Shown here one piece after another: positions 1,936-27,517 of a stretch of 34,342 bases of DNA. Position numbers and translations under genes: made by a program. Position 1 is the first letter of the stretch. Every line of letters begins with the position of its first letter. A model generated the notes under the pieces. That model saw nothing but the letters and a program-made list of their open reading frames with translations, had not been told where the DNA came from and searched no databases. Source of the DNA: Candidatus Omnitrophota bacterium (lineage in GTDB: Bacteria; Omnitrophota; Gorgyraeia; Gygaellales; Profunditerraquicolaceae); assembly GCA_028716305.1 (NCBI GenBank), contig JAQUQA010000001.1, positions 1-34,342 on the forward strand, read 5' to 3'.

Positions 1936-1953
1936 ATTTCTCCTTGCCTGTCT

Positions 1954-2778: not shown

Positions 2779-2801
2779 ATTCGATCCTTGCGTTTTTCGG
2801 C

Positions 2802-3878: not shown

Positions 3879-5116
3879 TGTTTTTTACCCGCTGCAGCCG
3901 GCAGGCATAAATCATCGAAAATCGCTTTATATAAAAGCGCCCCTTTCTCCAGGGAAAAGTTCCTAACCGCCAGCCGGCGGCACTCTTCTTTAAGCCGCGC
4001 ATTATTATTTTTCAATTCGAAAAGTTCACTCAAAGACTTTTCATAACAGTTACCCTTAAATTCGCTAATTACCGCTCCCACGGCGTTTTTCCGTAAAACC
4101 ATCTCCGTATCCCCAACACCAGAATTGATCACCACCGGTAATCCACAGGCAAGGTATTCCGCGAATTTTACCGGAGAACATGCCAGACGACTGAATGTCT
4201 GTTTATAGAAGATCAGGCCGGCATCGCAGAAAGAAAGAAATGCGGGAATCTGATTAAGCTCCGCTTCTCCCAGGGTAAAATCCCGCGAATGAATACCCAT
4301 TTTTTTAAGCGTAAGCTCGATATATGAGCGGTCGCCGGGACTTAAAATCACCAAATGGGCATCCGTTTTCATTTTCTTTGCCGTTTTAAAAAAATCCAGC
4401 ATTCCTTCAAGATTATACCATGTGCCCACCGAGCCGGTATAAATAAACAGGAATCTGTCGTCAAGTCCGCTTAAGAGCGGCGGCCTTACTTTAACCCCGG
4501 AGAAAGAAAAGAATTCCGTGTCCACGCAACATGGTATAACCCTAATCTTGGCCGCTTCTAGGGCGGGAAAATCTCCGGAATATAAAAGTATATCTTTTAT
4601 TCTTTCGGTAAGCACTACTACTGCGCTGGAGCCTTTCAGGAGACGAGCCTCGATTGTTTTCCCTAGAGTGAACAGCAAAGCCCCCTTCTTAATGATCCCG
4701 CCTTCGGCATATTCGTCTACCATCATTCCGCGCATATCGAAAATAAACTTTCTTCCAAGGCAAAAACGCAGTAAAAAAGCTATTACCGCCGGTACATAAC
4801 TTCTGGCATGCACGATATCAATTTTATCTTTTACGACGATGTACCCCGCATAAATAAACCCGCAGGCAATGTCCATAAAAGTCGAGATCACTGCCGGACG
4901 CTTATGATAGACCAGACGATACCAGCGGATATTGTGTGCTCTAAGCTCTGCGGATATCTTCCTATACCGCTGTTTATCCGCAAGGAATTTTTTCTTTTCA
5001 AAGGTTAAAATACTGAAAGATTTCCCCCTGTCCGAAAGTTTTTTCAAATAGGCTATCCCCTGCGAATATAACAGCGGCTCAAGGGCCCCATTATAGGAAA
5101 TGAACAGCCCCCTCAT
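3875..5116 (-). CDS. GT-B glycosyltransferase (GT4/GT1-like)
   Basis: 413 aa with a two-Rossmann layout. The C-terminal block is PVKFAEYLACGLPVVINSGVGDTEMV. There are ATGA overlaps at both ends. Confidence 0.85.
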   Translation of the reverse strand: MRGLFISYNGALEPLLYSQGIAYLKKLSDRGKSFSILTFEKKKFLADKQRYRKISAELRAHNIRWYRLVYHKRPAVISTFMDIACGFIYAGYIVVKDKIDIVHARSYVPAVIAFLLRFCLGRKFIFDMRGMMVDEYAEGGIIKKGALLFTLGKTIEARLLKGSSAVVVLTERIKDILLYSGDFPALEAAKIRVIPCCVDTEFFSFSGVKVRPPLLSGLDDRFLFIYTGSVGTWYNLEGMLDFFKTAKKMKTDAHLVILSPGDRSYIELTLKKMGIHSRDFTLGEAELNQIPAFLSFCDAGLIFYKQTFSRLACSPVKFAEYLACGLPVVINSGVGDTEMVLRKNAVGAVISEFKGNCYEKSLSELFELKNNNARLKEECRRLAVRNFSLEKGALLYKAIFDDLCLPAAAGKKQ

Positions 5117-6453
5117 AACACGCCTCCGCGAGAAATCTTTTTTTTGGAGTTACCGATATCCTGGCTCAGTCCGACCGCAGTAAAAATAAAAAATACAGGC
5201 CAAATCAACGCGCGGTGGCGGAAGAGCGTGCCTACATTTCCTTCCCCAAAAAAAGATAAGATCATCACCAGGATAAAGATCAAAATAAACAAGGATTCCT
5301 GCAGTCTGTAGCGTATGGAAAGCGCAACTCCTTTAAGCATGAAGAAAAACAAAACTATCCAAATAAGCATTTCCGCGGTCCCAAAAATATGTTTCAGCTT
5401 GGTAACCGCCCATGGAAAAGGAGCAAATAATATGTAAAGGAGGAACCCCGGGGCATTAAGGACGAAGGTTAACGGGGTAGAAATATCGGCGTCGGGTAAA
5501 AATGCCGTTTCCGCAGCCCAAAGCCTCACCTGATGCGCCTGATTCAATGCCTCGAAGACAGAACAGGAAGGAAAACCGATATAATTGTTGAATAGCCTGC
5601 TCACCGAATGCCATTTTAGAAATACCAGTAAAAAACTCAAACCAAGGATTATCAGGATGTATCTTTTTTTTCTACTGCAATAGTTTACCGCCAGCGATAT
5701 AAATCCGGCAAATATAACTACTACGGCGATCGAGCTGCGGATCTTATAAATCAGCGCAACGGACAATCCCAGCAGCACCCAATAAAAAATCAACCCGGGC
5801 GAATTCTTCAATTTATTTATCAGCCAAAAAATAAAGAACGCCAGAAAAATAGTGATCGGTTCTTTAAGGTTTTGCGTTGACCAAAGGATCAAAGAAGGCC
5901 AAAAGGCGCAAAGACCGGAGGCGATCAAAGCGCTGCGCCGGCCAAAGATATCCCGGGTAATAAAATAAATCAGGATTACCGTCAGGCTGCCGAAAACGCA
6001 ATTTAAAAAAAGTGTCATCAGGTAGTATTCCCCGATAAAATAGTAAAGAAATGCAACCAGATACGTGTAATTCAGGTCGCCTGCCCAAGGCATCCACCAC
6101 AGGCTGTTGGGCCCGGGGAGATAACCGGTTTCTTTCCACGCGGAAACAATACTGCTGGCATTCAGGGCATAACCGTAATCATCGGCCCCCAGAAAAAAGA
6201 TATTTCCCTTGCCGCGGTAAGCCAGCCAGGCAAGCAGCAGGCATAACAATATACGCAAGGCAAAGCCGGAATAAAATATCTTCAAAACGGCTGCCGGGCG
6301 GTCTTTTTCATACAGCTTCACCATGGCAACCCCGAAGAGAAACCCTAAAAACGCTATTAACCCGGGGACCAAAAGGGCCGGCGGGACAAAAAACAATACT
6401 CCTATAAGGACACCGGCAAAAACGATCTTCAACCTTTTATTTTCTTGCGGCAT
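5113..6453 (-). CDS. Polytopic membrane protein, PMT_2/ArnT-like GT-C glycosyltransferase candidate (an O-antigen-polymerase-like role is not excluded)
   Basis: 446 aa with more than 10 hydrophobic segments. An acidic GADDYGY motif sits in an early loop. The block LNCVFGSLTVILIYFITRDIFGRRSALIASGLCAFWPSLILWS resembles the PMT_2 core (R/N..LFG.L.V.L.Y...R..FG...A). Confidence 0.6.
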   Translation of the reverse strand: MPQENKRLKIVFAGVLIGVLFFVPPALLVPGLIAFLGFLFGVAMVKLYEKDRPAAVLKIFYSGFALRILLCLLLAWLAYRGKGNIFFLGADDYGYALNASSIVSAWKETGYLPGPNSLWWMPWAGDLNYTYLVAFLYYFIGEYYLMTLFLNCVFGSLTVILIYFITRDIFGRRSALIASGLCAFWPSLILWSTQNLKEPITIFLAFFIFWLINKLKNSPGLIFYWVLLGLSVALIYKIRSSIAVVVIFAGFISLAVNYCSRKKRYILIILGLSFLLVFLKWHSVSRLFNNYIGFPSCSVFEALNQAHQVRLWAAETAFLPDADISTPLTFVLNAPGFLLYILFAPFPWAVTKLKHIFGTAEMLIWIVLFFFMLKGVALSIRYRLQESLFILIFILVMILSFFGEGNVGTLFRHRALIWPVFFIFTAVGLSQDIGNSKKKISRGGVL

Positions 6454-7654
6454 AGCCTGACCTGATCCTTAAATAATAGTGGTAAACGGCATAAGCTGAC
6501 AAAATGATCAAAAAAGGCATGATCAGCGTCCTGTATCTGATACAGCTCCTGATCAACACGGAAACAAAGTTAAAATTAAAAATGATCAAAGCGAACAGTA
6601 AGGCGTAAGAAAACCGGCTTGCGGCCAGCAGGAATAACCCGATGGCCCCCAGGATAATCAGCGGTCCGTCGGTAAAAAGCATGACCAGGATATGCTTGAA
6701 ATTATAGGAATCCGGAAGGTCCGTGGTGTGAGGAAAGAACCTCCAGAAACGCAGGAATCTTCCGGCCAAGAGCTTACGATACTCCGCGGGATGGCTCTTA
6801 ATAAACTTCAACCCTTTGTTGTAATAATGCCTGTCGATCTGGACCTCTGACAATCCTGCGACTTCTTGGGAAGAAAGGCCTAAAACATAAAAATCCCCTC
6901 CCCCCTTGGTCAATACCTCCGGGTTGTGCGTGGCGTAAAAAGTCATTCCACCTTCCGTAGAGGCAAGGACTATTTTTTTATGCAGTGCGTAATTGCGGAT
7001 CACCCATGGGGCAATCAGCAGCCCGGCGGCAACAACCATGATCAATGCCTGACGCAGGGCCCGCCGTTTGTCCTTTTGAGTAAAGAATACCCAAAATGCC
7101 AGTAAGGGGATGAGCCCGTAGGCCATTGAACGTGTCATTGCCAATGCCCCCAGGAACACCCCGCTGAGCAAGGCATTAAAAAGGTACCCCCCTTTATTCC
7201 TTAAAAGAAAATAAACCGCCAGGAGCAACAAAAGGATCGCCAATGATTCAGGGGTAATTTTACCGTTCCAGTAGATAAAAGGCGGATAAAAAACAGCTGT
7301 CAGCATGGCCAATAAAGCGGGTTTTTTACCGAAGATCATCTTTGCGATCAGATAGATCAGGATGCAACCCAAACTGCTGAACAGGGAAAGCATGATTTCT
7401 ACCGGCAACAGGGCGGGTCCAAAAACCAGTATTGAACCGGCAAGAAAAAATGGAAAAACCCAGGGCCGCGCAGAAACAAAATCACTCACCCCCACCCACA
7501 TCGAGTAACCGTTCCCGGAAACGATGTTCTCGGCGATCTCCCAGCCCTCTTCATCCCAACAGCCTATTTCCTGGCTCCCCAGGGAATAAACATAAATGAC
7601 GCGGATGGCTAGGGCAACCAGAAAAAGCAAAAATACGATTTTATTATCTTTCAT
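6437..7654 (-). CDS. GT-C glycosyltransferase, family 39/83 (ArnT/PMT_2-like)
   Basis: The ORF is open to 7855, but that extension is Arg-rich and overlaps the upstream gene. The ATG at 7654 gives MKDNKIVFLLFLVALAIRVIY, a typical TM1. The first loop carries WDEEGWEIAENIVSGNGY (acidic DE motif). The PMT_2-like core is LFSSLGCILIYLIAKMIFGKKPALLAMLTAVFYPPFIYW. Confidence 0.75.
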   Translation of the reverse strand: MKDNKIVFLLFLVALAIRVIYVYSLGSQEIGCWDEEGWEIAENIVSGNGYSMWVGVSDFVSARPWVFPFFLAGSILVFGPALLPVEIMLSLFSSLGCILIYLIAKMIFGKKPALLAMLTAVFYPPFIYWNGKITPESLAILLLLLAVYFLLRNKGGYLFNALLSGVFLGALAMTRSMAYGLIPLLAFWVFFTQKDKRRALRQALIMVVAAGLLIAPWVIRNYALHKKIVLASTEGGMTFYATHNPEVLTKGGGDFYVLGLSSQEVAGLSEVQIDRHYYNKGLKFIKSHPAEYRKLLAGRFLRFWRFFPHTTDLPDSYNFKHILVMLFTDGPLIILGAIGLFLLAASRFSYALLFALIIFNFNFVSVLIRSCIRYRTLIMPFLIILSAYAVYHYYLRIRSGYAARK

Positions 7655-9203
7655 TTTTAATAAACCCGTAATTATGATCCGCTTTAAAAATATCATTAAA
7701 ACCGATGACCAGGGTTCCTTCCTGGGGCAGGCTGACCATCGCTTTTCTGATCCGCCGGTAATTCTCTTGCGCGATAACCTCAAAATTGACCTGTCCATCC
7801 GGAGTAAAATTAAGCGGCCCCTTTGCCACAAAGACCGGCTTGTCAATATGATCAACGGCCAGGTTAACCATGCTCACCAACCCCCTGTCTTCCAGGGCCT
7901 GGGCGCCAAAATAGGTGTTCAACAGGTTAAAATCGCGTTCGACAAAGGTAAACTTGATCTTGTCGGAAAAACTTTTGTTGTCAAAAACTATCCGTTGGGA
8001 CGCCAGAAGTTTGTCCTTATTGGCTTTCAGGCTGTCGTAAATCGCCCGGTTGATCCGGCAGGAAACCACCTGGGCCCAGGAATTCCCCTGAGAAACGATT
8101 AAAAATAAACCAGTAATAACCAACAACAACGGTTTCCAAAAACTGCCGAGTTTTGAAAACCACCAAATAGCCAGGATTACTATGCCAATTGAAGGCAGGA
8201 CCAAGTGCCTGCCTCCGATCCCCCCGCTCCTGCTCAAAAATAGCGGTGCAATAAAAAAAATAGCTGCCGCGATCGCAAATAAAATTTGTTTACCGCTGAT
8301 TTTAAGCCGGTTATCTTTAAGTAATTTTTTTAAAATATAGAGAGCTGCAATATCAAATATAAGAAATACAAAAAATAGCCACTTCGGGACCAAAACGAAA
8401 AAAAGATAAAAACCGTAAATCAGGCTTCTTAAAAGATACCGACCCGCATAATGATGTAACAATTCCACAAAAGCCAACGGCACGCCGGTTAAAGAAAAGG
8501 CATGCTGACTGACTGATTGATTAAGCACCGGCATAATATAAAAGCGGCAGGCCAAGTAGATGATTTCTGCGGCAAAAAACGGTACCAGGTACTTTATCAA
8601 GTTATTCCTTTTCAGGCAAAAACAATAGGCCATCAAAACAAACGGTTCAAAAAATCCTACCTCATACCAGAAAATCACCAGCAAATAGCTGAAAAATGAC
8701 AAATAGAGAAATGCTTTCTTCTTACTATTAATAAATTTAATAAAAAAACCGGTGCTAAAAATATAAATCCCTATTGCCGTATTCATATTGAGAAAGATCA
8801 GGCTGTGGTAAATTTCCAGGACATTCGGTAAAATGGAAAAAAGCAAAGCTCCGATAAAAGCGGTAAAAGAATCATTGAATAACTGAAAGACAAGATAATA
8901 AAAACCAAATGCAATAAAAAGGACGGAAAGGAAAAGAAGAATTAATGCCAATGTTGAATTTTCACCGATTAATTTACCTTGCAGCATAAGAAATATATAA
9001 TTAATTGGCCGGTCGCTTATCTTAAACATATTTTCGGGAATTTGGTTGAGTTCCAAATTTCGCGAAGTAAGTAAATAGACGTAATCATCGGGGGCAATAG
9101 AGGACCTTTCAAATGGTACAAAATGGGCAATAAATATAAAGATAACAAGTGTAATGATATACTGCTTATTAATCATACCTAAGTTTCCTGTCGAATTCTT
9201 CAT
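7644..9203 (-). CDS. Unassigned ~12-TM membrane protein with a soluble C-terminal domain; GT-C-like; paralogue A of 12748..14277
   Basis: 519 aa. The TM1 region YIITLVIFIFIAHFVPF is followed by a long loop containing APDDYVYL. About 12 hydrophobic segments precede a ~150-aa hydrophilic tail. It aligns along its full length with the 509-aa ORF at 12748..14277. There is an ATGA overlap with the upstream formyltransferase gene. Confidence 0.6.
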   Translation of the reverse strand: MKNSTGNLGMINKQYIITLVIFIFIAHFVPFERSSIAPDDYVYLLTSRNLELNQIPENMFKISDRPINYIFLMLQGKLIGENSTLALILLFLSVLFIAFGFYYLVFQLFNDSFTAFIGALLFSILPNVLEIYHSLIFLNMNTAIGIYIFSTGFFIKFINSKKKAFLYLSFFSYLLVIFWYEVGFFEPFVLMAYCFCLKRNNLIKYLVPFFAAEIIYLACRFYIMPVLNQSVSQHAFSLTGVPLAFVELLHHYAGRYLLRSLIYGFYLFFVLVPKWLFFVFLIFDIAALYILKKLLKDNRLKISGKQILFAIAAAIFFIAPLFLSRSGGIGGRHLVLPSIGIVILAIWWFSKLGSFWKPLLLVITGLFLIVSQGNSWAQVVSCRINRAIYDSLKANKDKLLASQRIVFDNKSFSDKIKFTFVERDFNLLNTYFGAQALEDRGLVSMVNLAVDHIDKPVFVAKGPLNFTPDGQVNFEVIAQENYRRIRKAMVSLPQEGTLVIGFNDIFKADHNYGFIKNER

Positions 9204-10069
9204 CCAAATCTCTTTCGCAATTTAGTAAAAATAAGCTTTTTTCCATCTGCAGACATGGCCGATAGAATCCGCACTATTCCTTCTCCACAGATAACTTCCG
9301 GCATATTATCTTTTAAATTCCAAATCTTTCCCGGGTGCCTTTCCACAAAATTGATATCATTTACCGCAATAACCTTATCTACTACGATTTCTTCCTGCTC
9401 ATACATTGTCTTTGCCCCGAGATATGGCCAGCTAAGCGCGTCGACGAACCGTGCTATTTTTTTAGCAGGCCAACTCCAATCAATCAAATAATCAAATTTA
9501 TCACGCCACAAACTATAAGAAGCAAAATTATTATTTTGTTTATAGTACTTCAATTTTCCCAGCTGAGACTTTCTGAGTATATCCCGGGCTATCTGCACGT
9601 AGCAAAAAGCTAACTGATCATAGGCATCTTTAATCCTTAAGGGGTATTTAACAGTTAAGGCGGTCTGGGCACATATCGGGCCAGCGTCCCTTTGTGTATG
9701 CGGTTTCAATGCGGTTACGCCGATCCTATTATTACCCAAGATCAAGGCGTTTACGGTTGGAGCAAAACCCCTGAATTTAGGAAGCAAAGAGTCGTGAAAA
9801 ACTATAATTCTATCGTCTATCTTATCAAGAAGATACTGCCAGCCAACGATGAAAATTAAATCCGCCTTTAGACAGCCCATATCCAGATCCCTCTTTTCAA
9901 AAAAATTATATTTTTCCTTTCTGCATAACTTCCTGATAAAATCATAAGAATTATCAAGCGTGCCTTCTGTTGCGTATGAAACGACACAAGCAACCTTGCA
10001 CTCTTTATGGATAATTTTCAGAAAATTATACCCTTTGTACCCAGCGATTAAAAAAGCTATTTTTTTCAT
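9200..10069 (-). CDS. Formyltransferase-family protein (Fmt/ArnA-N/sugar N-formyltransferase-like)
   Basis: 289 aa. It carries the hallmark HDSLLPKFRGFAP (family motif H-x-SLLP-x-x-RG), a downstream TALKPHTQRDAGPI with the conserved Asp, and an Fmt-C-like C-terminal domain. The Asn normally 2 residues before the His is Val here (IIVFH). Confidence 0.8.
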   Translation of the reverse strand: MKKIAFLIAGYKGYNFLKIIHKECKVACVVSYATEGTLDNSYDFIRKLCRKEKYNFFEKRDLDMGCLKADLIFIVGWQYLLDKIDDRIIVFHDSLLPKFRGFAPTVNALILGNNRIGVTALKPHTQRDAGPICAQTALTVKYPLRIKDAYDQLAFCYVQIARDILRKSQLGKLKYYKQNNNFASYSLWRDKFDYLIDWSWPAKKIARFVDALSWPYLGAKTMYEQEEIVVDKVIAVNDINFVERHPGKIWNLKDNMPEVICGEGIVRILSAMSADGKKLIFTKLRKRFG

Positions 10070-10986
10070 AAGCCGATTTTCTCCGATATTATGTACAGGG
10101 GTCTCTTTTTTATTTCATAAAAGGCCTTCCCCAGATAGAGTCCGATTATCCCAAGAACAGTGATGATTATTCCTCCTATAAAATATAAAGAAACGATTAA
10201 GCTTGCCCATCCCATAATTGGGATCCCAAAGAAAATTTTCCGGTAGATTACGTATATCCCGACCAAAAAAGAAAGAAAAGAAATTATAAAACCAAAGGTA
10301 ATAGATAGCCTGAGCGGTTTATCGGAGTAGGCTACAATAGTATCTATGGCTAATTTACACAATGAACGGAAATTATATGAGCTCTTTCCGCTAAAACGCT
10401 GTTTAAATTCTACATCGATATAGGCCGTGGGATACCCCATCCAGTCAACCAATCCTCCAAAAAACCTCAAATTTTCTCTCATTAAGCGAAAGTTTTCAAC
10501 GACATTCCTCGACATAATCCTAAAATTCCTGATTCTGTAATCATAATGAATATCGGCCAGATAATTCAGGAATCTGTAAAACAAAATAGCTGAGCACCTT
10601 TTCAGAAAAAAATCATTTCGTCTGACCCTTCTGGCTATAACCATCTCAAAGCCATCTTTAGCTTTTTCGTATAACCTAGTTATATCCTCCGGCTTATCCT
10701 GGAGGTCGCAATCCATGACAACCACCCAGTCTCCTTTGGCGTAATCTAAACCGGCAGTAATCCCGTAATGCTGCCCAAAATTTCTACTAAACTTTATTCC
10801 TTTAAAATGCGGATCACTTTTGACTATTTGCTCAATAAGCTTCCAGGAATCATCCTTCCCCCCATCTTCAATTAATATAACTTCATAGGAATTAATTCCT
10901 GTAAGAGATTCTTTTAGGCGCGAGCAAAGTTCATTGAGACACTTCTCTGCATTGTAAACCGGGACGACCACAGAAATAACTGGCAT
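10066..10986 (-). CDS. GT2 polyprenyl-phosphate glycosyltransferase (ArnC/GtrB-like) with a C-terminal TM hairpin
   Basis: 306 aa. Motifs: VISVVVPVYNAEK, EVILIEDGGKDDS, SRNFGQHYGITAG and VVMDCDLQDKPEDI. Two C-terminal hydrophobic helices are present (LRLSITFGFIISFLSFLVGIYVIY and LIVSLYFIGGIIITVLGIIGLYL). The architecture is as I recall for E. coli ArnC. Confidence 0.85.
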   Translation of the reverse strand: MPVISVVVPVYNAEKCLNELCSRLKESLTGINSYEVILIEDGGKDDSWKLIEQIVKSDPHFKGIKFSRNFGQHYGITAGLDYAKGDWVVVMDCDLQDKPEDITRLYEKAKDGFEMVIARRVRRNDFFLKRCSAILFYRFLNYLADIHYDYRIRNFRIMSRNVVENFRLMRENLRFFGGLVDWMGYPTAYIDVEFKQRFSGKSSYNFRSLCKLAIDTIVAYSDKPLRLSITFGFIISFLSFLVGIYVIYRKIFFGIPIMGWASLIVSLYFIGGIIITVLGIIGLYLGKAFYEIKKRPLYIISEKIGL

Positions 10987-10997
10987 ATACGCTCCTT

Positions 10998-12131
10998 TTA
11001 TTGCTCAAGGGTCATTAAAGCTAAATCGGCCATTTTCCGGATTTCTTTTTTTCTTAAACCAATCCACAATGGTAACCTAATTATCCTTTTGCTTATATCA
11101 AGGGTATTGCTTAATTTTCCAACACTGCGGGAGAACTTCAAACCCGCCTTTGAATTATGCAGTGGTACGTAATGAAAAATAGCCTGGTATCCCTTATCTC
11201 GCAGATGTTTCAGCACTAAAGCGCGCTTCCTGTGTGTCGCAACCAGAATATAATACATATGGGCGTTGTGCCTGCAGTTTCTGGGAATAACCGGACGCCG
11301 CAGAATTCTGTCAGCCTCTGGCTCTTTAAACATGGCGTGATACTGTTCCCAAATATCCAAGCGCGAACTCCTGATGAGGTACTCAGAAGTCATTTGGGCC
11401 CAAAGGAAAGCTGCATTAATCTCGCTGGGTAAAAATGACGAACCTATGTCAACCCAGGAGTACTTATTGACCTCCCCCCTGAAAAACTTGCTCCGGTTGG
11501 TGCCTTTTTCCCTGATAATTTCTGCCCGTTCCATATAATTTTTATCATTAATCAACAGCGCTCCGCCTTCTCCGCAATGGATATTTTTTGTCTCGTGAAA
11601 GCTTATTATGGCAAAATGGCCAAAGCTGCCCAGGGGCTTGTTATTATACATGCTCGAAAGGGCATGGGCCGCATCTTCAATGACCAAAAGATTATACTCC
11701 TTCGCAATCTTCATTATGGTTTCCATTTCACAGCCTATTCCTGCGTAGTGTACGGGCACTATGGCTTTAGTCTTTTTGGTTATGGCCTTCTTTAACTGTC
11801 TTTCATCCAAATTCAAAGTATCTGGCCTAATATCAATAAAAACAGGAATAGCCCCCCTTAATACAAAAGCATTTGCCGTAGAAGTGAAAGTAAAAGAAGG
11901 CATAATCACTTCATCACCGGGACGAATATCTGCCAGGATTGCCGCCATCTCCAAGGCCGCCGTTCCAGAATGGGTAAGCAAGGCCCCCTGGCAACCAATT
12001 TTATTCACTAGCCATTGATTACACTTTTTTGTAAAAAACCCGTCACCGGAAAGTTGGCCGAATTTTACCGCTTGACTGATATATTTAGTCTCCTTGCCAG
12101 TAATATACGGCCGATTAAAAGGTATTTTCAT
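10998..12131 (-). CDS. wecE: DegT/DnrJ/EryC1 PLP aminotransferase, WecE-like (dTDP-4-keto-6-deoxyhexose 4-aminotransferase type)
   Basis: 377 aa. Long stretches match my memory of E. coli WecE: IPFNRPY..G.E..Y, GDG.FT..C..WL, GDEVIMPSFTF.STANAFVLRGA, VHYAG..CEM..IM, SFHETKN (PLP Lys), AEIIREKGTNRS.FFRG.V.KY.W.DIGSS and NAHMYYI. Confidence 0.85.
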   Translation of the reverse strand: MKIPFNRPYITGKETKYISQAVKFGQLSGDGFFTKKCNQWLVNKIGCQGALLTHSGTAALEMAAILADIRPGDEVIMPSFTFTSTANAFVLRGAIPVFIDIRPDTLNLDERQLKKAITKKTKAIVPVHYAGIGCEMETIMKIAKEYNLLVIEDAAHALSSMYNNKPLGSFGHFAIISFHETKNIHCGEGGALLINDKNYMERAEIIREKGTNRSKFFRGEVNKYSWVDIGSSFLPSEINAAFLWAQMTSEYLIRSSRLDIWEQYHAMFKEPEADRILRRPVIPRNCRHNAHMYYILVATHRKRALVLKHLRDKGYQAIFHYVPLHNSKAGLKFSRSVGKLSNTLDISKRIIRLPLWIGLRKKEIRKMADLALMTLEQ

Positions 12132-12154
12132 CTTATGCCCTCATTTCCGTTCAT

Positions 12155-12751
12155 TTACTTAGTACATTCAATAATCAGATGATTATAGGGTATATTAAGC
12201 ATGTCATCGCGCAATTCCGTCTTAACGCCAGAGAAAACCTTTGATGCAAGATTTACGTATTCTTCCCGGTTCCTGACAAATTTACCGCGGTCCTTTGAAA
12301 GAATAAAACGTATTAACCGGTGCTGATTTTTAGTGTAACATCCGTCAATAGTTAACATCCTCCCGCCTTTTTTTAAGCCCGCAAAGGCAAGTTTGAATAA
12401 ATCTACCGCTTCCCGATCATTTAGATGATGCATTACCCCATTGGCCATAATTAAGTCGAATAAGGGCAAGGTTTCAATTATATTCATGTCAATATTCGAA
12501 CAAAAGAAATTACCGACTTTTGAATAATTTTCCTTAGCTGATTTAATATACTGTGCGTTTATATCAAAACCCGTATAAATAACTCCCGTTAAGAATTTCA
12601 AAATGTCAGCTGGCCCGCAGCCAACATCCAATATCTTATCGCCTTCCCGGGGCCTTAAGTAATTAGAAACAAATAACGCATGTGCCTTTCCGCCCCCGAC
12701 AATATTATAAAATAACCTGTAAAACAGCGGGGAATCCAATAAATACCTCAT
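12155..12751 (-). CDS. Class I SAM-dependent methyltransferase
   Basis: 198 aa. Motif I is ILDVGCGPADIL. The blocks FDLIMANGVMHHL and LKKGGRMLTIDG are also present. There is an ATGA overlap with the upstream membrane-protein gene. Confidence 0.85.
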   Translation of the reverse strand: MRYLLDSPLFYRLFYNIVGGGKAHALFVSNYLRPREGDKILDVGCGPADILKFLTGVIYTGFDINAQYIKSAKENYSKVGNFFCSNIDMNIIETLPLFDLIMANGVMHHLNDREAVDLFKLAFAGLKKGGRMLTIDGCYTKNQHRLIRFILSKDRGKFVRNREEYVNLASKVFSGVKTELRDDMLNIPYNHLIIECTK

Positions 12752-14277
12752 TTTGTTATTCCTTTGAGCAAACGACTTTCGGAAATTAATTTGTAGTTAA
12801 TTATAAAAACGTTATTAATAGGCTGAGTCATACTTATATTATTAATTTTCCGATATTCCACTATTTGCGGTATGGCAAATGCTAACGTATCAGCGAATTT
12901 TTTAGGAGATTCGCTTGCCAGATATACTTCAATATTTTTATTTTCAGTGGCTAAGAAAACCATTCCCTTGATACCTTCGTAATGAAACATATTGGCACCG
13001 TAATATGTCTCAAAGAGATTGGATTGGTTCCCGAATAAACTATGTGGAATGTTTTTCGCTAAACTATTAACATCTACAATGACAACTTCTTTATTTTTTA
13101 TAGTCTCTCTATTTTCTTTGATTACCCCGAAGATTGCGGCGTTTATTCTGCAAGACACTACTTGAGCCCAGGAATTTCCCTGGGAAACTAAAAGACATAG
13201 AAAAATAATACATATAGATGGAACCAGCCATTTGTTTCGCATCTTTTCAAAAATATTAACCAGTATGATTGATACACCGATACTTGGCATGATTAGATAT
13301 CTGCTGGCTATACCAAAGTTTTTATTCATAAGAAACGGCAAAATAAAAATAATGAATAGAATTAAAGCATAAAGGTTGCTCTTATTTCTTTTTACTGCCC
13401 CCGGGTAACTTACCATCATACGTATAATAGTAAACAAGACAAAAACGTCAATAAAAATGATGGGGATCAACCATGAGGGGGATATTGTAAAAAATTTATA
13501 AATGCCATATATCATGCTTCTAGCTAAATACCTGCCGAAATAATGATTGAATACATCAATCAATGGCCTGATGGGCAATATCGCTAAATCTAGGTTATAG
13601 CCCGACATCCTCAATTGACTGGAGCCAAAGGAATTAGTGAAACGGTAAAACGTATATAAAATAACAGGGATCAAGTAATAAAAAGAATACCTGGTTTTAT
13701 TTCTCTCATAAAATATGCAATAAAAGAACGCGGCAACTGGCAGAAAAAAACCGGCTTCATACCAAAATATACCGATTGTATACCCAAATATAGCTGAAAA
13801 TAAAAATAATTTACGCTGGTTCTTGAGAAAATAAATAAACGCTATCAAGGATAAGATATAAATACTTACTACGATATTAATATTTAGAAAAATCAAAGTG
13901 TGGTAAATTTCCAATTTATTTGGCAGAAGGATGTAAAATAACGAGGCGAAAAAAGCGCTCATTTCATTTCCAAGTAGCAATAAAAATAACCAATATATGC
14001 AAATGAGTAGCAAAGTACTCGAAATCACTAACGAGATGAATCCAAGAGCGACATTTTCACCGATCAATTTTCCCTGAAGCATAAAAAAAGAATATATGAT
14101 TGGGCGGTCAGGAACCTTAAACATTATTTTAGGTATTTGCTCAATCTCGACATTTTTTGACTGAGCCAAATAAAAATAATCATCGGAAGAAAAAGAGGCT
14201 CTCTCTAAAGGCAGAAAATGAGCGACCATATTCAGCAGAATCAGCAGGCTGACAAAGAACAGCTGTTTTTTATTCAT
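12748..14277 (-). CDS. Unassigned ~12-TM membrane protein with a soluble C-terminal domain; GT-C-like; paralogue B of 7644..9203
   Basis: 509 aa with the same layout as 7644..9203. TM1 is followed by a loop with SSDDYFYL. Shared blocks include FFMLQGKLIGEN, LEIYHTLIFLNIN, FWYEAGFF, HYFGRYLARSMIYG and VSQGNSWAQVVSCRIN. There is an ATGA overlap with the upstream GT2. Confidence 0.6.
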   Translation of the reverse strand: MNKKQLFFVSLLILLNMVAHFLPLERASFSSDDYFYLAQSKNVEIEQIPKIMFKVPDRPIIYSFFMLQGKLIGENVALGFISLVISSTLLLICIYWLFLLLLGNEMSAFFASLFYILLPNKLEIYHTLIFLNINIVVSIYILSLIAFIYFLKNQRKLFLFSAIFGYTIGIFWYEAGFFLPVAAFFYCIFYERNKTRYSFYYLIPVILYTFYRFTNSFGSSQLRMSGYNLDLAILPIRPLIDVFNHYFGRYLARSMIYGIYKFFTISPSWLIPIIFIDVFVLFTIIRMMVSYPGAVKRNKSNLYALILFIIFILPFLMNKNFGIASRYLIMPSIGVSIILVNIFEKMRNKWLVPSICIIFLCLLVSQGNSWAQVVSCRINAAIFGVIKENRETIKNKEVVIVDVNSLAKNIPHSLFGNQSNLFETYYGANMFHYEGIKGMVFLATENKNIEVYLASESPKKFADTLAFAIPQIVEYRKINNISMTQPINNVFIINYKLISESRLLKGITK

Positions 14278-14960
14278 AGCCTTAACCTCAAAAGGAAAAG
14301 TTGCTTAAAATTGGCCCAGATTGTCGCCGGATTATTTACTTTTGACCGACCGCAGACCCTGGGCTTCATCTCAATCGGGATACTGGTGATCTTATATCCG
14401 CGCTTTTTGGTCTTGATAATCAGCTCCATCAACACTGTCCACGGCCGGCCACCCGGGGAAAGCAGCTCGATTTTATCGAGCAATCGGCGCCTGAACATCA
14501 ACACTCCCTGAAATTTAGGCATCGGCCCAAAAAGCAGAAAGAATAAGGCCTTCTCCACCCGCGAAAGGGCCCGGGAAAGCAGAGAATCGTTCCTTTTCGG
14601 CAGGTAACCCAGGACCATATCGTGCTCTTGGGCTAAAGGCAGGAACTTATCAAGCAGATCCGCGGAAAACTGCCCGTCCGCCGAATAAAAAGTAAGCAGG
14701 TCCTTGGTCGCCCTGGCAAAGGCGGTACGGTAACCCGTTCCCAGTCCGCAATTATTGCCGTGGTGTATGACCGAAACCCGCTCCAGATCGTGACTCAGGC
14801 GATCCGCGATTTTTCCGGTTTTATCCGTGCTCCCGTCATCAATAACCACCAGCTCAAAATCCCCGCCCTGTCTGGAAAGGGCCTTCCAGGCCTGCCTCGT
14901 CACCTGCTCCAGGGTGGCCTCTTCATTAAAAGCTAAAATAAAAAGACTGATACTTTGCAT
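14274..14960 (-). CDS. GT2 glycosyltransferase, short soluble DPM1/polyprenyl-phosphate-hexose-synthase-like
   Basis: 228 aa. Motifs: ISLFILAFNEEATL, ELVVIDDGSTDKTGKIA, NCGLGTGYRTAF and FYSADGQF (DxD-like region). There is no C-terminal TM segment. Confidence 0.8.
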   Translation of the reverse strand: MQSISLFILAFNEEATLEQVTRQAWKALSRQGGDFELVVIDDGSTDKTGKIADRLSHDLERVSVIHHGNNCGLGTGYRTAFARATKDLLTFYSADGQFSADLLDKFLPLAQEHDMVLGYLPKRNDSLLSRALSRVEKALFFLLFGPMPKFQGVLMFRRRLLDKIELLSPGGRPWTVLMELIIKTKKRGYKITSIPIEMKPRVCGRSKVNNPATIWANFKQLFLLRLRL

Positions 14961-14965
14961 GCCGT

Positions 14966-15880
14966 CTATGGGTACAGATGGTAAAAATTAAAGGTTTCTC
15001 TTACCCGGAAACCCGCTTTTTCGTAAAATCTTTTTAACCCCGGGTGCTCGGACTCAAAATTAAGGATGATCCCCTTATTTTCAGATTGTAATCTTTTATG
15101 CGCCTCTTTGATCAGGCTCATTCCAATACCGTGCTTGCGCTCACCCTTTTTAACCACGATCATATCAACAAAACCATATCTTTCTCCAAGGAAATCCCTT
15201 TGGTCATAAGCGATAAAGCCGGCGATCCTCCCCTTCCGGCAGGCAACCAGGCAGGTATCCACCCGGCCGGATAGATCATTCATCGCCCATTGATAGTAAA
15301 GCCGCTTGACCTTATTTTTATCCAGGCGAGATTCTCTTAAAAGCCGGTTCTTATATCCGCTTGCCATGATCGCACAGATATCCTTAAATTCATTTTTTTT
15401 AGGCTCACGGATGAGCATGCCCTTGGGTTCGAAAGATATTTTTTCTTTAAAAGAAAGCCGCGCGTTAAGGGTCCGCGAGATCAAACGGGCCTTATTTTTT
15501 TTTAGCGCAAAGATAAGCGGCCGGCCGCCCACCGGGTCCCTGAAGAAGATTATCTTTACTCCGGCCGATCTGCAACGCCTGAGTAGGTCTTTGATCAGGT
15601 TATCGTAAAGCGAGGAACGCTTTAGGGTATTTTTTCGGGTCGCGATAAAAAGCATCCTGGCGGCCTTTACCCCCAGGAGCCGGCTGTCCCAACCAAGCAG
15701 CTGATATGCCAAAACCCCGGATAAGGGCTTTTTGCCTTGTCCGGGAAAGATAACGTATTCTTGCCCGCTTAAGGGAGATACCTTTCCCCCAAAGTAATTC
15801 TTTAAGGCAAGAGCTTCCTGGGATTCCCGCAAGAATACCCGCACGGCGCTTTCAGTTAATTTTCCTTTTGCTTCAGGCAT
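14966..15880 (-). CDS. Two-domain GNAT N-acetyltransferase, WecD-like (amino-sugar N-acyltransferase type)
   Basis: The C-terminal GNAT motif A is VVKKGERKHGIGMSLIKEA, followed by FYEKAGFRV. An upstream LLGWDSRLLG segment resembles the L.WDS.FFG start of WecD-type enzymes. The ORF is open to 15937. I prefer the ATG at 15880, which gives an ATGCCTGA 8-nt overlap with the SDR stop. Confidence 0.7.
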   Translation of the reverse strand: MPEAKGKLTESAVRVFLRESQEALALKNYFGGKVSPLSGQEYVIFPGQGKKPLSGVLAYQLLGWDSRLLGVKAARMLFIATRKNTLKRSSLYDNLIKDLLRRCRSAGVKIIFFRDPVGGRPLIFALKKNKARLISRTLNARLSFKEKISFEPKGMLIREPKKNEFKDICAIMASGYKNRLLRESRLDKNKVKRLYYQWAMNDLSGRVDTCLVACRKGRIAGFIAYDQRDFLGERYGFVDMIVVKKGERKHGIGMSLIKEAHKRLQSENKGIILNFESEHPGLKRFYEKAGFRVRETFNFYHLYP

Positions 15881-16853
15881 TCGCGGATTCCTTGTTTTTC
15901 CTGAACCATTCGATGGTCTTTTCAATGCCTTCTTCAATCCCTATCTTCGCCTTGAAATCAAGTATCTTCTCGGCTTTAGAGACATCGGGAAGCCTCCTGG
16001 ATATATCTTCGTAGCCGCTGCCGTAAATCTCCTCCGGCTGGATATGCACGATCTCGGATTTCGAACCGGTAACTTTTTTAATGATCTTTGCCAGTTCCAG
16101 AATAGTAATTTCCTTGGAATCTCCGATATTAAAAATCTGTCCTTCCGCTTCTTTTAAGACCGCGCATTTAACCAATCCCTTGATTACGTCTTCGACATAG
16201 GTAAAACACCTGGTCTGTTTGCCGTCACCGATAACCGTGATCTGCTTATTGGCCAATGCCTGGACAATAAAACGCGACATTACCCTGCCGCTGCCCTCGA
16301 TATCAAGCTTTGGCCCATAGGCGTTAAAAAAACGAACGATACTCATGGGAAGCCCCTGGCGGTGATACCCGATCAGCATATATTCCCCCAGGGCCTTGGT
16401 CGAGGAATAAACCCAGCGGTCTACGCTAGTCGGCCCCAGTAATCTGTCGTCGTCTTCTTTAAAGGGCACATTCGGGCTTTTACCATAGATCTCGGAAGTC
16501 GAGGTAAAAATGACCTTTTTCTTGTATTTAAAGGCCAGGGAAGCCACATTTTTTGTTCCGTCGACATTTATGCTGATGACCTTGAGAATGTCCCCGATAA
16601 TGTTCTCTACACCTACTGCCGCGGCCAAGTGATACACCAGGTCGCACTTTTTTATGAGAATCTCCAGCGCCGCCTCTTCCAGGATCGAACTTTCAAAAAA
16701 ATTAAAGTTTTTATGACTTTCGAATTCCCCGATATTATTCTTGTTGCCCCTGAGCATAATATCAAGCCCATAGACCTCATTTCCTTCTTTAAGCAGCTTT
16801 TCCGCAAGATGCGCGCCGATAAAACCCGCGACCCCCGTGATCAATATCCTCAT
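15873..16853 (-). CDS. Extended SDR, NAD-dependent epimerase/dehydratase family; ArnA C-terminal (UDP-uronate 4-oxidase/decarboxylase)-like
   Basis: 326 aa. MRILITGVAGFIGAHL carries the GxxGxxG motif. FTSTSEIYG, RWVYSSTKALGEY (YxxxK), GDGKQTRCFTYVEDV and GYEDISRRLPD parallel ArnA segments PSTSEVYG, RWIYSVSKQL, GGKQKRCFT and GYQDVEHRKP as I remember them. Confidence 0.8.
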   Translation of the reverse strand: MRILITGVAGFIGAHLAEKLLKEGNEVYGLDIMLRGNKNNIGEFESHKNFNFFESSILEEAALEILIKKCDLVYHLAAAVGVENIIGDILKVISINVDGTKNVASLAFKYKKKVIFTSTSEIYGKSPNVPFKEDDDRLLGPTSVDRWVYSSTKALGEYMLIGYHRQGLPMSIVRFFNAYGPKLDIEGSGRVMSRFIVQALANKQITVIGDGKQTRCFTYVEDVIKGLVKCAVLKEAEGQIFNIGDSKEITILELAKIIKKVTGSKSEIVHIQPEEIYGSGYEDISRRLPDVSKAEKILDFKAKIGIEEGIEKTIEWFRKNKESANA

Positions 16854-17716: not shown

Positions 17717-17718
17717 AC

Positions 17719-18744: not shown

Positions 18745-18748
18745 GTCA

Positions 18749-19702: not shown

Positions 19703-19716
19703 TTTGCGATAGCGAT

Positions 19717-27431: not shown

Positions 27432-27517
27432 ATCCGGATAAATGTAGGGGTTTAAGTCGGATATTCCGATTTCTTCATCTACCCAGTTGCGGGGGTCATC
27501 TCCGATCTGGTGCTCGA

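What the first reader, a model, noticed from the sequence alone, without database searches (positions are those of the whole stretch)
7644..12131. Arn-pathway-like module predicting a lipid-carrier-mediated N-formyl amino-sugar decoration
**Seen in the sequence**
Four tightly coupled genes run in order: a WecE-like 4-aminotransferase (10998..12131), an ArnC/GtrB-like GT2 with a TM hairpin (10066..10986), an Fmt/ArnA-N-like formyltransferase (9200..10069) and a GT-C-like membrane protein (7644..9203). A PMT_2/ArnT-family GT-C follows directly (6437..7654).

**Established knowledge**
- In the Arn (polymyxin-resistance) pathway, ArnB aminates a 4-keto sugar nucleotide and the ArnA N-domain formylates it.
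- ArnC then loads the formylated sugar on undecaprenyl phosphate.
- The GT-C enzyme ArnT transfers it at the periplasmic face.

**Other matching parts in the same array**
- An SDR (15873..16853) has TSTSE, RW.YS.SK and GY.D...R.P segments that match the ArnA decarboxylase domain as I recall it.
- A second aminotransferase (32527..33666) is ArnB-like.

**Not seen**
An ArnD-type deformylase and any ArnE/F- or GtrA-type flippase.

**Inference**
The locus makes a polyprenyl-phosphate-linked N-formylated amino sugar and attaches it after export. Because the adjacent aminotransferase is WecE-type, the sugar is possibly a 4-formamido-4,6-dideoxyhexose rather than Ara4N. The unusual points are the non-ArnT terminal transferase and the embedding of this module inside a large glycan operon rather than a lipid A modification operon.
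Basis: partly seen in the sequence, partly recalled or inferred. Interest (0 to 1): 0.75.

Follow-up and report, generated by a model that had tools for sequence, protein, structure and literature searches.

The report
Imported lipid-carrier amino-sugar decoration module
A block of genes in an uncultured Omnitrophica bacterium most likely makes an N-formylated (or similarly N-capped) 4-amino-6-deoxy sugar, loads it on a membrane lipid carrier and attaches it to a surface glycan outside the cytoplasm. Its three core genes recur together across many bacterial phyla, and I found no published description of them.

Summary
Four translationally coupled minus-strand genes encode:
- a WecE-type aminotransferase (10998-12131);
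- a GtrB/ArnC-type polyprenyl-phosphate glycosyltransferase with a two-helix membrane anchor (10066-10986);
- an Fmt/ArnA-fold formyltransferase-like protein (9200-10069);
- a GT-C-fold membrane protein that matches no Pfam model (7644-9203).

The Arn-like reading is largely supported and can be extended.
1. GT2, FT-like and WecE-type genes form a cassette that recurs in 80 genome loci from many phyla. It often sits beside rmlA/rmlB, GtrA or ArnE/F-like flippases and varied polytopic membrane proteins. An ArnD-type deacylase is almost never present.
2. The FT-like clade lacks the catalytic Asn throughout (V/I-x-H-D-SLLP), so formyl transfer is inferred, not shown.
3. A near-identical relative (L089) lacks the cassette. 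Window bases ~8107-14305 form a low-GC replaced block holding a second GT-C paralogue, a methyltransferase, the cassette and only the membrane part of the 519-aa GT-C. That protein's C-terminal domain stays 92-98% identical to the relative's.
4. The SDR at 15873-16853 belongs to a separate, neighbouring SDR–acyltransferase–GT2–GT-C module.

Being embedded in a glycan operon is normal for such systems. I rate this a new variant of a known kind.

The parts
10998..12131 (-). WecE-type PLP aminotransferase. Predicted to convert dTDP-4-keto-6-deoxy-D-glucose into dTDP-4-amino-4,6-dideoxyhexose (Fuc4N type).
   Evidence: NF008687 573 bits (cut-off 375) and TIGR02379 560 bits (cut-off 435); the ArnB model gives only 198 bits against a cut-off of 631. 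PDB WecE (6BLG, 4PIW) E 1e-123.
10066..10986 (-). GtrB/ArnC-type polyprenyl-phosphate glycosyltransferase (GT2 with a C-terminal two-helix membrane anchor).
   Evidence: PF00535 104 bits. GtrB 5EKP E 6e-66 over residues 4-306, ArnC E 1e-40. Motif DCDLQD, against DADLQD in GtrB and DADLQN in ArnC. Best NCBIfam models are PgfS at 235 bits and ArnC at 160 bits, both below their cut-offs.
9200..10069 (-). Two-domain Fmt/ArnA-fold formyltransferase-like protein from a clade that lacks the catalytic Asn (IIVFHDSLLPKFRG). His92 and Asp128 are retained.
   Evidence: PF00551 plus PF02911. Alignments to Fmt place Val where Fmt has Asn. The substitution holds in 25 of 25 aligned homologues and 75 of 80 genome loci. 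Model pLDDT 89.5, TM about 0.8 to Fmt and ArnA-FT.
7644..9203 (-). GT-C-fold membrane glycosyltransferase (519 aa) of a family with no Pfam model. It is a mosaic: the membrane part lies in the imported block and the C-terminal soluble domain in the conserved flank.
   Evidence: pLDDT 88.7; the 26 best PDB matches are all GT-C. Asp39 in the first-loop DDY motif is invariant. 5 of 28 family members reach PMT_2. Identity to the L089 orthologue is 40-69% for aa 1-360 and 92-98% for aa 401-519.
12155..12751 (-). SAM-dependent methyltransferase (198 aa) inside the imported block. Possibly tailors the sugar.
   Evidence: Methyltransf_25/31/12/11. Homologues lie beside the cassette in L011, L012 and L026. 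An unrelated methyltransferase of about 290 aa follows the FT gene in 20 loci.
12748..14277 (-). Second GT-C of the same family (509 aa), a 37%-identical paralogue of the 519-aa protein. It follows the 228-aa GT2 with a 4-bp overlap.
   Evidence: BLASTP E 1e-102. Only 36% identical to either GT-C of L089. GC 33%.
8107..14305 (.). Low-GC replaced block, relative to a near-identical operon (L089). It holds the 509-aa GT-C, the methyltransferase, the WecE-type gene, the GT2, the FT-like gene and the membrane part of the 519-aa GT-C.
   Evidence: Nucleotide identity to L089 is about 96% at 14306-22207 and 89-98% at 5857-8106. It falls to 58-66% at 8107-9032, and there is no match at 9033-14305. 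GC is 30-47% inside the block and 45-53% outside. In L089 the two GT-C genes are adjacent.
14274..16853 (-). Neighbouring, separate module in the conserved flank: UXS/ArnA-DH-like SDR (15873-16853), GNAT (14966-15880) and a 228-aa GT2 without a membrane anchor (14274-14960).
   Evidence: The proteins are 93-99.7% identical in L089. The same SDR–acyltransferase–GT2–GT-C order occurs in L002-L005 and L090 without any FT gene.
5113..7654 (-). Two PMT_2-family GT-C genes (6437-7654 and 5113-6453) directly downstream. Their donor and acceptor are unknown.
   Evidence: PF13231 at 49 and 32 bits, cut-off 26. Both are conserved in L089, at 94% and 72%.

Best explanation
The four genes are the working core of an Arn-like, 'three-component'-type pathway that decorates a surface glycan outside the cytoplasm.

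Proposed steps:
1. dTDP-4-keto-6-deoxy-D-glucose is made by RmlA/RmlB, which are encoded outside the window.
2. The WecE-type enzyme aminates it at C4.
3. The FT-like enzyme caps the new amine, most likely with a formyl group from N10-formyl-tetrahydrofolate. As in the Arn pathway, this would pull an unfavourable transamination forward and give a neutral donor.
4. The GtrB-type GT2 transfers the sugar to undecaprenyl phosphate at the inner face of the membrane.
5. A flippase that is not in the window exports the lipid-linked sugar.
6. The 519-aa GT-C transfers it to the glycan built by the surrounding operon.

No deacylase accompanies the cassette, so the N-cap probably stays on the finished glycan.

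Shown here: the family and fold of each protein, the conserved trio, and the mosaic acquisition.
Inferred: the substrates, the formyl donor, which GT-C goes with which donor, and the acceptor.

The block at about 8107-14305 entered by replacing the resident GT-C genes. It brought a new donor pathway together with new GT-C membrane domains, and it kept the old C-terminal domain. This is what strain-level glycan diversification would look like.
For: - Each family assignment was tested.
- The gene order WecE-GT2-FT-GT-C mirrors arnB-arnC-arnA-(arnD)-arnT, with 4-bp overlaps.
- In 80 loci found with the FT profile, the WecE-type cluster lies within 6 kb in 70 and the full-length GtrB-like cluster in 50. 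Either lies within 3 kb in 69, usually 0-100 bp away on the same strand.
- Pairwise distances of the three proteins co-vary: Mantel r 0.66-0.80, p 0.001, 30 loci. Shared species phylogeny could also cause this.
- rmlB and rmlA lie beside the cassette in 20 of 80 loci, and 5 of 8 tested SDRs pass the RmlB cut-off.
- GtrA (PF04138) or paired EamA/SMR-type small transporters lie nearby in other loci.
- 54 of 80 loci have a large polytopic membrane protein within 6 kb. In 20 a same-strand one starts 1.0-1.35 kb past the FT gene, about where WecE ends. Of 10 scanned, two are PMT_2.
- A deacetylase-type homologue was seen in only 1 of 80 loci.
- The L089 comparison shows the cassette arriving together with the membrane domain of the adjacent GT-C.
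- ArnC accepts only the formylated donor, a precedent for N-capping before lipid loading (PMC12690121).
Against: - The FT-like clade lacks the Asn of the Asn-His-Asp triad. It scores far below the cut-off of every formyltransferase equivalog: Fmt 86 bits against 201, ArnA 82 against 777.
- The window has no rmlA/rmlB, no flippase and no deacylase.
- GtrB-type enzymes are described as using UDP-sugars (PMC11127046). I know of no dTDP-sugar example.
- None of the 80 cassette loci carries a GT-C of the window's family. The L089 orthologue of the 519-aa GT-C exists without the cassette. The pairing therefore rests only on adjacency and the mosaic.
- In the sister contig L091 (98.8% identical) the methyltransferase has a stop codon. 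The FT-like gene there has a 16-codon in-frame deletion that removes the invariant G-K-x-W residues. This may be decay, or assembly error.
Confidence: 0.65

Rival explanations
1. The lipid-carrier pathway is the same, but the FT-like protein is not a formyltransferase. It might add a different one-carbon or acyl group, or act without catalysis, for example as a substrate-channelling partner of the GT2. The transferred sugar would then carry another N-substituent or a free amine.
For: The catalytic Asn is replaced by Val or Ile throughout the clade, and an invariant His-Asp pair and G-W-Q motif appear instead. No curated formyltransferase model is passed. No solved sugar N-formyltransferase was found by sequence at E 1e-3.
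Against: The folate-loop motif SLLPxxRG, His92 and Asp128 are invariant, with the same His-to-Asp spacing (36 residues) as I recall for ArnA. The fold matches Fmt and ArnA-FT over both domains, TM about 0.8. From memory, GAR transformylase mutants lacking the equivalent Asn keep some activity.
Confidence: 0.18
2. The adjacency is misleading. WecE and the FT-like enzyme would supply a dTDP-formamido sugar to a cytoplasmic Leloir glycosyltransferase of the operon. The GtrB-like GT2 and the GT-Cs would handle an ordinary UDP-hexose, as in classical Gtr glucosylation.
For: The operon has several GT4 and GT2 enzymes that could use nucleotide sugars. The GT2 is closer to GtrB (226 bits) than to ArnC (143 bits). 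GtrB-type enzymes are known with UDP-sugars. 30 of 80 loci show no full-length GtrB-like gene within 6 kb.
Against: The GT2 lies within 300 bp of the FT gene in 43 of 80 loci from many phyla, and several other loci are cut by contig ends. FT and GT2 distances co-vary at r 0.80. In the window the FT gene sits between the GT2 and the GT-C with 4-bp overlaps.
Confidence: 0.1
3. It is a true Arn pathway for Ara4N on lipid A. The SDR at 15873-16853 would act as ArnA decarboxylase and the aminotransferase at 32527-33666 as ArnB.
For: The SDR is UXS/ArnA-DH-like, at 206 and 201 bits and against ArnA structures. The far aminotransferase scores 371 bits on the ArnB model. One related locus, L067, has a bona fide UDP-4-keto-pentose synthase next to the cassette.
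Against: The aminotransferase inside the module passes the WecE cut-offs, not ArnB's. The SDR lies in the flank conserved in L089, which has no FT-like gene or GtrB-like GT2. There is no ArnD, ArnE/F or ArnT orthologue. The cassette also occurs in Gram-positive lineages without lipid A: Paenibacillus, Cohnella, Lachnospiraceae.
Confidence: 0.04
4. The block is recently imported DNA that is not, or is no longer, functional in this lineage.
For: GC is 30-44%, well below the flanks. The sister contig L091 has a nonsense codon in the methyltransferase and a 48-bp deletion in the FT-like gene.
Against: In the window all six genes are intact, overlap by 4 bp and keep every family-invariant residue.
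Confidence: 0.03

Closest known systems
Arn (PmrHFIJKLM) pathway for Ara4N modification of lipid A
   Same: The logic and gene order match: aminotransferase, then polyprenyl-phosphate GT2, then formyltransferase-fold enzyme, then GT-C. The amine is capped before loading on undecaprenyl phosphate, and ArnC accepts only the formylated donor.
   Different: The aminotransferase is WecE-type, pointing to a dTDP-6-deoxyhexose rather than a UDP-pentose. The FT-like protein lacks the catalytic Asn and is not fused to a decarboxylase. There is no ArnD or ArnE/F. The GT-C is not ArnT. The acceptor is unlikely to be lipid A in general, because the cassette also occurs in Gram-positive lineages.
Gtr-type three-component periplasmic glycosylation systems (GtrA/GtrB/Gtr*; Klebsiella Gml; Citrobacter GT136 system)
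   Same: A GtrB-like Und-P glycosyltransferase is paired with a GT-C inside a glycan locus. The GT-C partner varies between loci. GtrA or SMR-type flippases occur in related loci.
   Different: Two dedicated sugar-tailoring enzymes (aminotransferase and FT-like) are built into the cassette. The donor is probably a dTDP-sugar. The window has no flippase gene.
Sugar N-formyltransferases (ArnA-FT, WlaRD, QdtF/FdtF, VioF, WbtJ, Rv3404c)
   Same: The protein has the formyltransferase fold, the SLLPxxRG loop and the conserved His and Asp. It sits next to a sugar aminotransferase.
   Different: Asn is replaced by Val or Ile across the clade. The protein has the Fmt/ArnA two-domain architecture. By sequence it is nearer to Fmt and ArnA than to the known dTDP-sugar formyltransferases.
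Streptococcus mutans Pgf protein O-glycosylation system (PgfS, PgfM1, PgfE, PgfM2)
   Same: PgfS is the best NCBIfam hit of the GT2, at 235 bits. Both systems have one Und-P GT2 with several GT-C enzymes.
   Different: The score is well below the PgfS cut-off of 500. Pgf has no aminotransferase or FT-like enzyme. Whether the acceptor here is a protein is unknown.

Membership tests
Arn pathway (Ara4N-lipid A) | ArnB-type UDP-4-keto-pentose aminotransferase | tested here: not met
   The module's aminotransferase scores 198 bits on NF008658 (cut-off 631) but 573 bits on the WecE model (cut-off 375).
Arn pathway (Ara4N-lipid A) | ArnA formyltransferase domain with the Asn-His-Asp triad | tested here: not met
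   82 bits on NF005998 (cut-off 777). Val occupies the Asn position; His and Asp are present.
Arn pathway (Ara4N-lipid A) | ArnC orthologue | tested here: not met
   160 bits on NF007986 (cut-off 529). The architecture and the DxDLQ motif are shared.
Arn pathway (Ara4N-lipid A) | ArnD deformylase, ArnE/F flippase and ArnT (GT83) | tested here: not met
   Nothing in the window matched Pfam's polysaccharide-deacetylase, EamA/SMR or GtrA models. The 519-aa GT-C matches ArnT only at fold level, rank 17.
Three-component (Gtr-type) extracytoplasmic glycosylation | Polyprenyl-phosphate GT2 with a C-terminal membrane hairpin | tested here: met
   Full-length match to GtrB 5EKP, E 6e-66, including both membrane helices. 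DCDLQD motif.
Three-component (Gtr-type) extracytoplasmic glycosylation | GT-C-fold transferase encoded beside it | tested here: met
   pLDDT 88.7. The top 26 Foldseek PDB hits are all GT-C. Invariant first-loop Asp39. 5 of 28 relatives hit PMT_2.
Three-component (Gtr-type) extracytoplasmic glycosylation | Small flippase (GtrA or SMR/EamA pair) | tested here: not met
   None in the 34-kb window. Present next to the cassette in other loci: seven GtrA and three EamA/SMR-type proteins confirmed.
Three-component (Gtr-type) extracytoplasmic glycosylation | Lipid-linked monosaccharide is the donor; transfer occurs outside the cytoplasm | not testable with these tools
   Needs LC-MS of lipid extracts and in vitro assays.
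WecE (dTDP-4-amino-4,6-dideoxygalactose transaminase) | Passes the curated equivalog model; close to solved WecE | tested here: met
   573 bits against 375; PDB 6BLG and 4PIW at E 1e-123. The stereochemistry of the product was not tested.
N10-formyl-THF-dependent formyltransferases | Fold plus the SLLPxxRG folate loop with catalytic His and Asp | tested here: met
N10-formyl-THF-dependent formyltransferases | Catalytic Asn two residues before the His | tested here: not met
   V/I-x-H-D in 75 of 80 loci and 25 of 25 aligned homologues.
Pgf protein O-glycosylation | PgfS equivalog | tested here: not met
   235 bits against a cut-off of 500. PgfM and PgfE were not tested.

The most novel reading that the evidence does not exclude
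The trio of GtrB-like GT2, Asn-less FT-fold enzyme and WecE-type aminotransferase may define a widespread, so far undescribed class of extracytoplasmic glycan decoration. It would deliver a dTDP-derived 4-(formyl)amino-4,6-dideoxyhexose through undecaprenyl phosphate, in Gram-negative and Gram-positive phyla alike. It would be the first GtrB-type enzyme working on a dTDP-sugar and a new catalytic variant of the formyltransferase fold.

The window also offers a natural domain swap. The membrane (donor-side) part of a GT-C arrived with the donor pathway, while the C-terminal (presumed acceptor-side) domain was kept. That would be direct evolutionary evidence for modular donor and acceptor specificity in GT-C enzymes.
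Probability: 0.4. Interest if true: 0.75.

Novelty: new variant of a known kind. Interest (0 to 1): 0.62.

Why it matters
Three-component systems are a main source of surface-antigen diversity. They matter for serotyping, phage and immune recognition, and glyco-engineering. Known donors are simple UDP- or PRPP-derived sugars, plus Ara4N.

A conserved cassette that builds a tailored amino-6-deoxyhexose and hands it to a lipid carrier would add a new donor class. It would predict formamido-sugar side chains in many unstudied glycans, including those of culturable Pseudomonas, Flavobacterium, Hymenobacter, Paenibacillus and rhizobial relatives.

It would also give enzymologists a formyltransferase-fold clade without the canonical Asn. 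The mosaic GT-C suggests a testable rule for engineering donor specificity.

Tried and rejected
- Literature. Full-text searches combined formyltransferase, GtrB, GT-C, polyprenyl phosphate, Qui4NFo/Fuc4NFo, viosamine and three-component. None found a description of this cassette. Two ArnA papers could not be fetched, and a third did not name the catalytic residues. The Asn-His-Asp triad therefore rests on my own knowledge plus the alignments.
- Mobile elements. The FT-like protein has no match in the plasmid collection. It has only one distant hit (26% identity) in a Pseudomonas phage. I found no sign of phage or plasmid carriage.
- GNAT at 14966-15880 as a WecD-type dTDP-Fuc4N acetyltransferase. 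Only a weak NCBIfam hit (30 bits) and generic GNAT matches in the PDB. Dropped.
- Scores against the window. Rank correlation of FT and GT2 scores gave rho -0.04. This reference-based test is uninformative, so I replaced it with the pairwise Mantel test.
- GT-C family near other cassettes. A profile of the window's GT-C family found none of the large membrane proteins next to the cassette in the 80 loci. The terminal transferase is not conserved with the cassette.
- Deacylase search. It used two single sequences only, so distant ArnD-like proteins could have been missed.

Full report
SOURCE AND LAYOUT

Every gene in the 34-kb window lies on the minus strand. The contig is annotated in NCBI as a Candidatus Omnitrophica MAG and also occurs in a Logan metagenome assembly. 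The window is one long glycan operon. It encodes GT4 and GT2 glycosyltransferases, many methyltransferases, two GNATs and NeuB-, PseG-like and WbuX/HisH/HisF-type nonulosonic-acid genes. It also encodes two asparagine-synthase-like proteins and four GT-C-like membrane proteins.

THE OBSERVATION

The four genes are real and tightly coupled.

- 10998-12131 passes both curated WecE models, at 573 and 560 bits. It matches solved WecE at E 1e-123.
- 10066-10986 matches the polyprenyl-phosphate glucosyltransferase GtrB over its whole length, both C-terminal membrane helices included (E 6e-66). It matches ArnC at E 1e-40. Its metal-binding motif DCDLQD agrees with DADLQD in GtrB and DADLQN in ArnC.
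- 9200-10069 carries both formyltransferase domains. Its model superposes on Fmt and the ArnA formyltransferase domain at TM about 0.8.
- 7644-9203 has no Pfam or NCBIfam match. Its confident model (pLDDT 88.7) finds only GT-C enzymes among its 26 best PDB matches. Its family has an invariant Asp in a first-loop DDY motif. Five of 28 relatives reach the PMT_2 model.
- Two PMT_2 genes follow.

No ArnD-type, GtrA-type or ArnE/F-type gene was found in the window.

THE FORMYLTRANSFERASE-LIKE PROTEIN IS ATYPICAL

Alignments to three Fmt structures place Val where Fmt has its catalytic Asn: IIVFHDSLLPKFRG against VNVHASLLPRWRG.

This is not a local defect. More than 1,200 homologues exist. In 25 of 25 aligned ones and 75 of 80 genome loci the motif is V/I-x-H-D-SLLP. 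His92, Asp128 and the folate-loop residues are invariant, and so is a G-W-Q motif.

The protein therefore belongs to a distinct, strongly constrained clade. Sources annotate it only as 'methionyl-tRNA formyltransferase'. Formyl transfer remains the most economical guess, but it is not demonstrated.

A CONSERVED CASSETTE

I scanned one genome per species with the FT profile and kept the 80 best loci. They span Alpha-, Beta-, Gamma- and Deltaproteobacteria, Bdellovibrionia, Bacteroidota, Cyanobacteria and Firmicutes. They also include Verrucomicrobia, Planctomycetes, Acidobacteria, Elusimicrobiota and Synergistaceae.

| Neighbour of the FT gene | Loci (of 80) |
|---|---|
| WecE-type cluster within 6 kb | 70 |
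| Full-length GtrB-like cluster within 6 kb | 50 |
| Either of the two within 3 kb | 69 |
| rmlB and/or rmlA homologue within 10 kb | 20 |
| Methyltransferase of about 290 aa | 20 |
| Large polytopic membrane protein within 6 kb | 54 |
| Deacetylase-type (ArnD-like) homologue | 1 |

- The usual order is GT2, FT, WecE, with gaps of 0-100 bp.
- The three proteins' pairwise distances co-vary (Mantel r 0.66-0.80). Common descent alone could produce this.
- Five of 8 tested SDRs pass the RmlB cut-off.
- Seven GtrA proteins and three EamA/SMR-type (ArnE/F-like) proteins near the cassette were confirmed with Pfam.
- In 20 of the 80 loci a same-strand polytopic membrane protein starts 1.0-1.35 kb past the FT gene, about where WecE ends. 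These proteins are very diverse. Of 10 scanned, two are PMT_2, seven match no Pfam model and one, upstream of the cassette, is an amino-acid permease. None belongs to the window's GT-C family.

This is the signature of a three-component system with built-in sugar tailoring and a variable, acceptor-specific transferase. The missing deacylase suggests that the N-cap is retained. In Arn, by contrast, ArnD removes it.

THE MODULE ARRIVED AS A BLOCK

Contig L089 carries the same operon.

| Window bases | Nucleotide identity to L089 |
|---|---|
| 14306-22207 | about 96% |
| 9033-14305 | no match |
| 8107-9032 | 58-66% |
| 5857-8106 | 89-98% |
| 1442-5558 | 57-74% |

Flank proteins are almost identical: the SDR 99.7%, a GT4 98%, the 228-aa GT2 95.6% and the first PMT_2 94%.

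In L089 two GT-C genes of this family sit side by side, with no methyltransferase, WecE, GtrB-like GT2 or FT gene between them.

GC falls from 45-53% in the flanks to 30-47% inside 8100-14300.

The 519-aa GT-C is a mosaic. Residues 1-360 are 40-69% identical to the L089 orthologue, and residues 401-519 are 92-98% identical. The model shows that C-terminal part as a soluble, strand-rich domain.

The replaced unit therefore contains the 509-aa GT-C paralogue (37% identical to the 519-aa one), the methyltransferase, the cassette and only the membrane part of the 519-aa GT-C. A new donor pathway came in together with new GT-C membrane domains. To me this is the best available hint that these GT-Cs use the new donor.

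A second sample (L091) carries the same block at 98.8% identity. There the methyltransferase has a stop codon and the FT-like gene has a 16-codon in-frame deletion.

WHAT DOES NOT BELONG TO THE MODULE

The SDR at 15873-16853 is UXS/ArnA-decarboxylase-like. However, it lies in the conserved flank. Other members of this GT-C family sit in an SDR–acyltransferase–GT2–GT-C arrangement without any FT gene. A DegT aminotransferase, FemAB-type acyltransferases and a polysaccharide deacetylase lie further along.

The window thus holds two adjacent lipid-carrier modules.

The aminotransferase at 32527-33666 scores equally on the ArnB and PseC models, below both cut-offs. It sits among nonulosonic-acid genes.

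COMPARISON WITH WHAT IS KNOWN

The module works like Arn and like Gtr-type three-component systems, but it fails the membership tests for Arn. The aminotransferase is WecE-type, the FT lacks Asn, the GT2 is below the ArnC cut-off, and there is no ArnD, ArnE/F or ArnT.

Three-component systems inside O-antigen loci, some with several GT-Cs, are already described (PMC11127046). The operon context is therefore ordinary.

New, as far as the searchable literature shows:
- the conserved trio itself;
- its probable dTDP-sugar donor, where GtrB-type enzymes are described with UDP-sugars;
- the Asn-less formyltransferase clade;
- the mosaic GT-C.

VERDICT

- Best explanation (confidence 0.65): a lipid-carrier-mediated decoration with an N-capped, probably N-formyl, 4-amino-4,6-dideoxyhexose, acquired as a 6.2-kb block.
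- Main uncertainty: the chemistry of the FT-like enzyme.
- Also unknown: which GT-C uses which donor, the acceptor, and the flippase and rmlA/rmlB genes missing from the window.

Noticed in passing
window 26982-28147 (-): The WbuX-type N-acetyl-sugar amidotransferase is split into two ORFs. 27518-28147 covers profile positions 2-184 and 26982-27431 covers 222-344. The reading frame shifts near 27450-27500, so this is a frameshift, pseudogene or sequencing error.
   Followed up: partly
window 7644-9203 (-): The NCBI protein for this gene (P0001, PHD09_00035) is only 461 aa. That later start drops the first membrane helix and the invariant E32/R33/D39 loop, which are conserved across the family. 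The 519-aa start is the better one.
   Followed up: yes
window 12748-16853 (-); L002, L005, L090: A second lipid-carrier module recurs in other genomes: UXS/ArnA-DH-like SDR, acyltransferase (GNAT or hexapeptide), short GT2 and a GT-C of the same unmodelled family. A DegT aminotransferase, FemAB-type acyltransferases and a polysaccharide deacetylase lie nearby. It may be an Arn analogue that uses N-acyl instead of N-formyl.
   Followed up: partly
window 14274-14960 (-): The 228-aa GT2 has no membrane anchor. It carries SADGQF where polyprenyl-phosphate GT2s have DADLQ(D/N/H).
   Followed up: no
L091:2241-2840 and L091:4923-5744: In a sister contig 98.8% identical to window 8078-14991, the methyltransferase has a premature stop (Glu93 to stop). 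The FT-like gene has a 48-bp in-frame deletion that removes the invariant G-K-x-W residues. This could be decay, population heterogeneity or an assembly artefact.
   Followed up: partly
window 22234-23013 (-) versus L089:1-483: DNA identity to L089 ends at about 22207. At the next gene position the window has a GNAT (259 aa), while L089 has a short Formyl_trans_N protein (IVIHASDLPKGRG, also with no Asn two residues before the His). This may be a second variable site that switches N-acetyl for N-formyl.
   Followed up: no
window 1442-5857: A second divergent stretch relative to L089 (57-74% nucleotide identity) covers a methyltransferase, two GT4 genes and the C-terminal part of the second PMT_2 protein. 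The operon appears to be a patchwork of conserved and swapped segments.
   Followed up: no
L067:7928-8968: In a Bacteriovoracaceae MAG the FT/GT2 pair sits next to a bona fide UDP-4-keto-pentose/UDP-xylose synthase (483 bits, cut-off 294) and a more ArnB-like aminotransferase. Some members of the Asn-less FT clade may therefore serve a pentose (Ara4N-type) route.
   Followed up: no
window 1954-2955 versus 2802-3878 (-): The listed ORFs overlap by about 150 bp. The L089 orthologue of the methyltransferase is 274 aa, against the 333-aa ORF here, so the true start is probably downstream.
   Followed up: no
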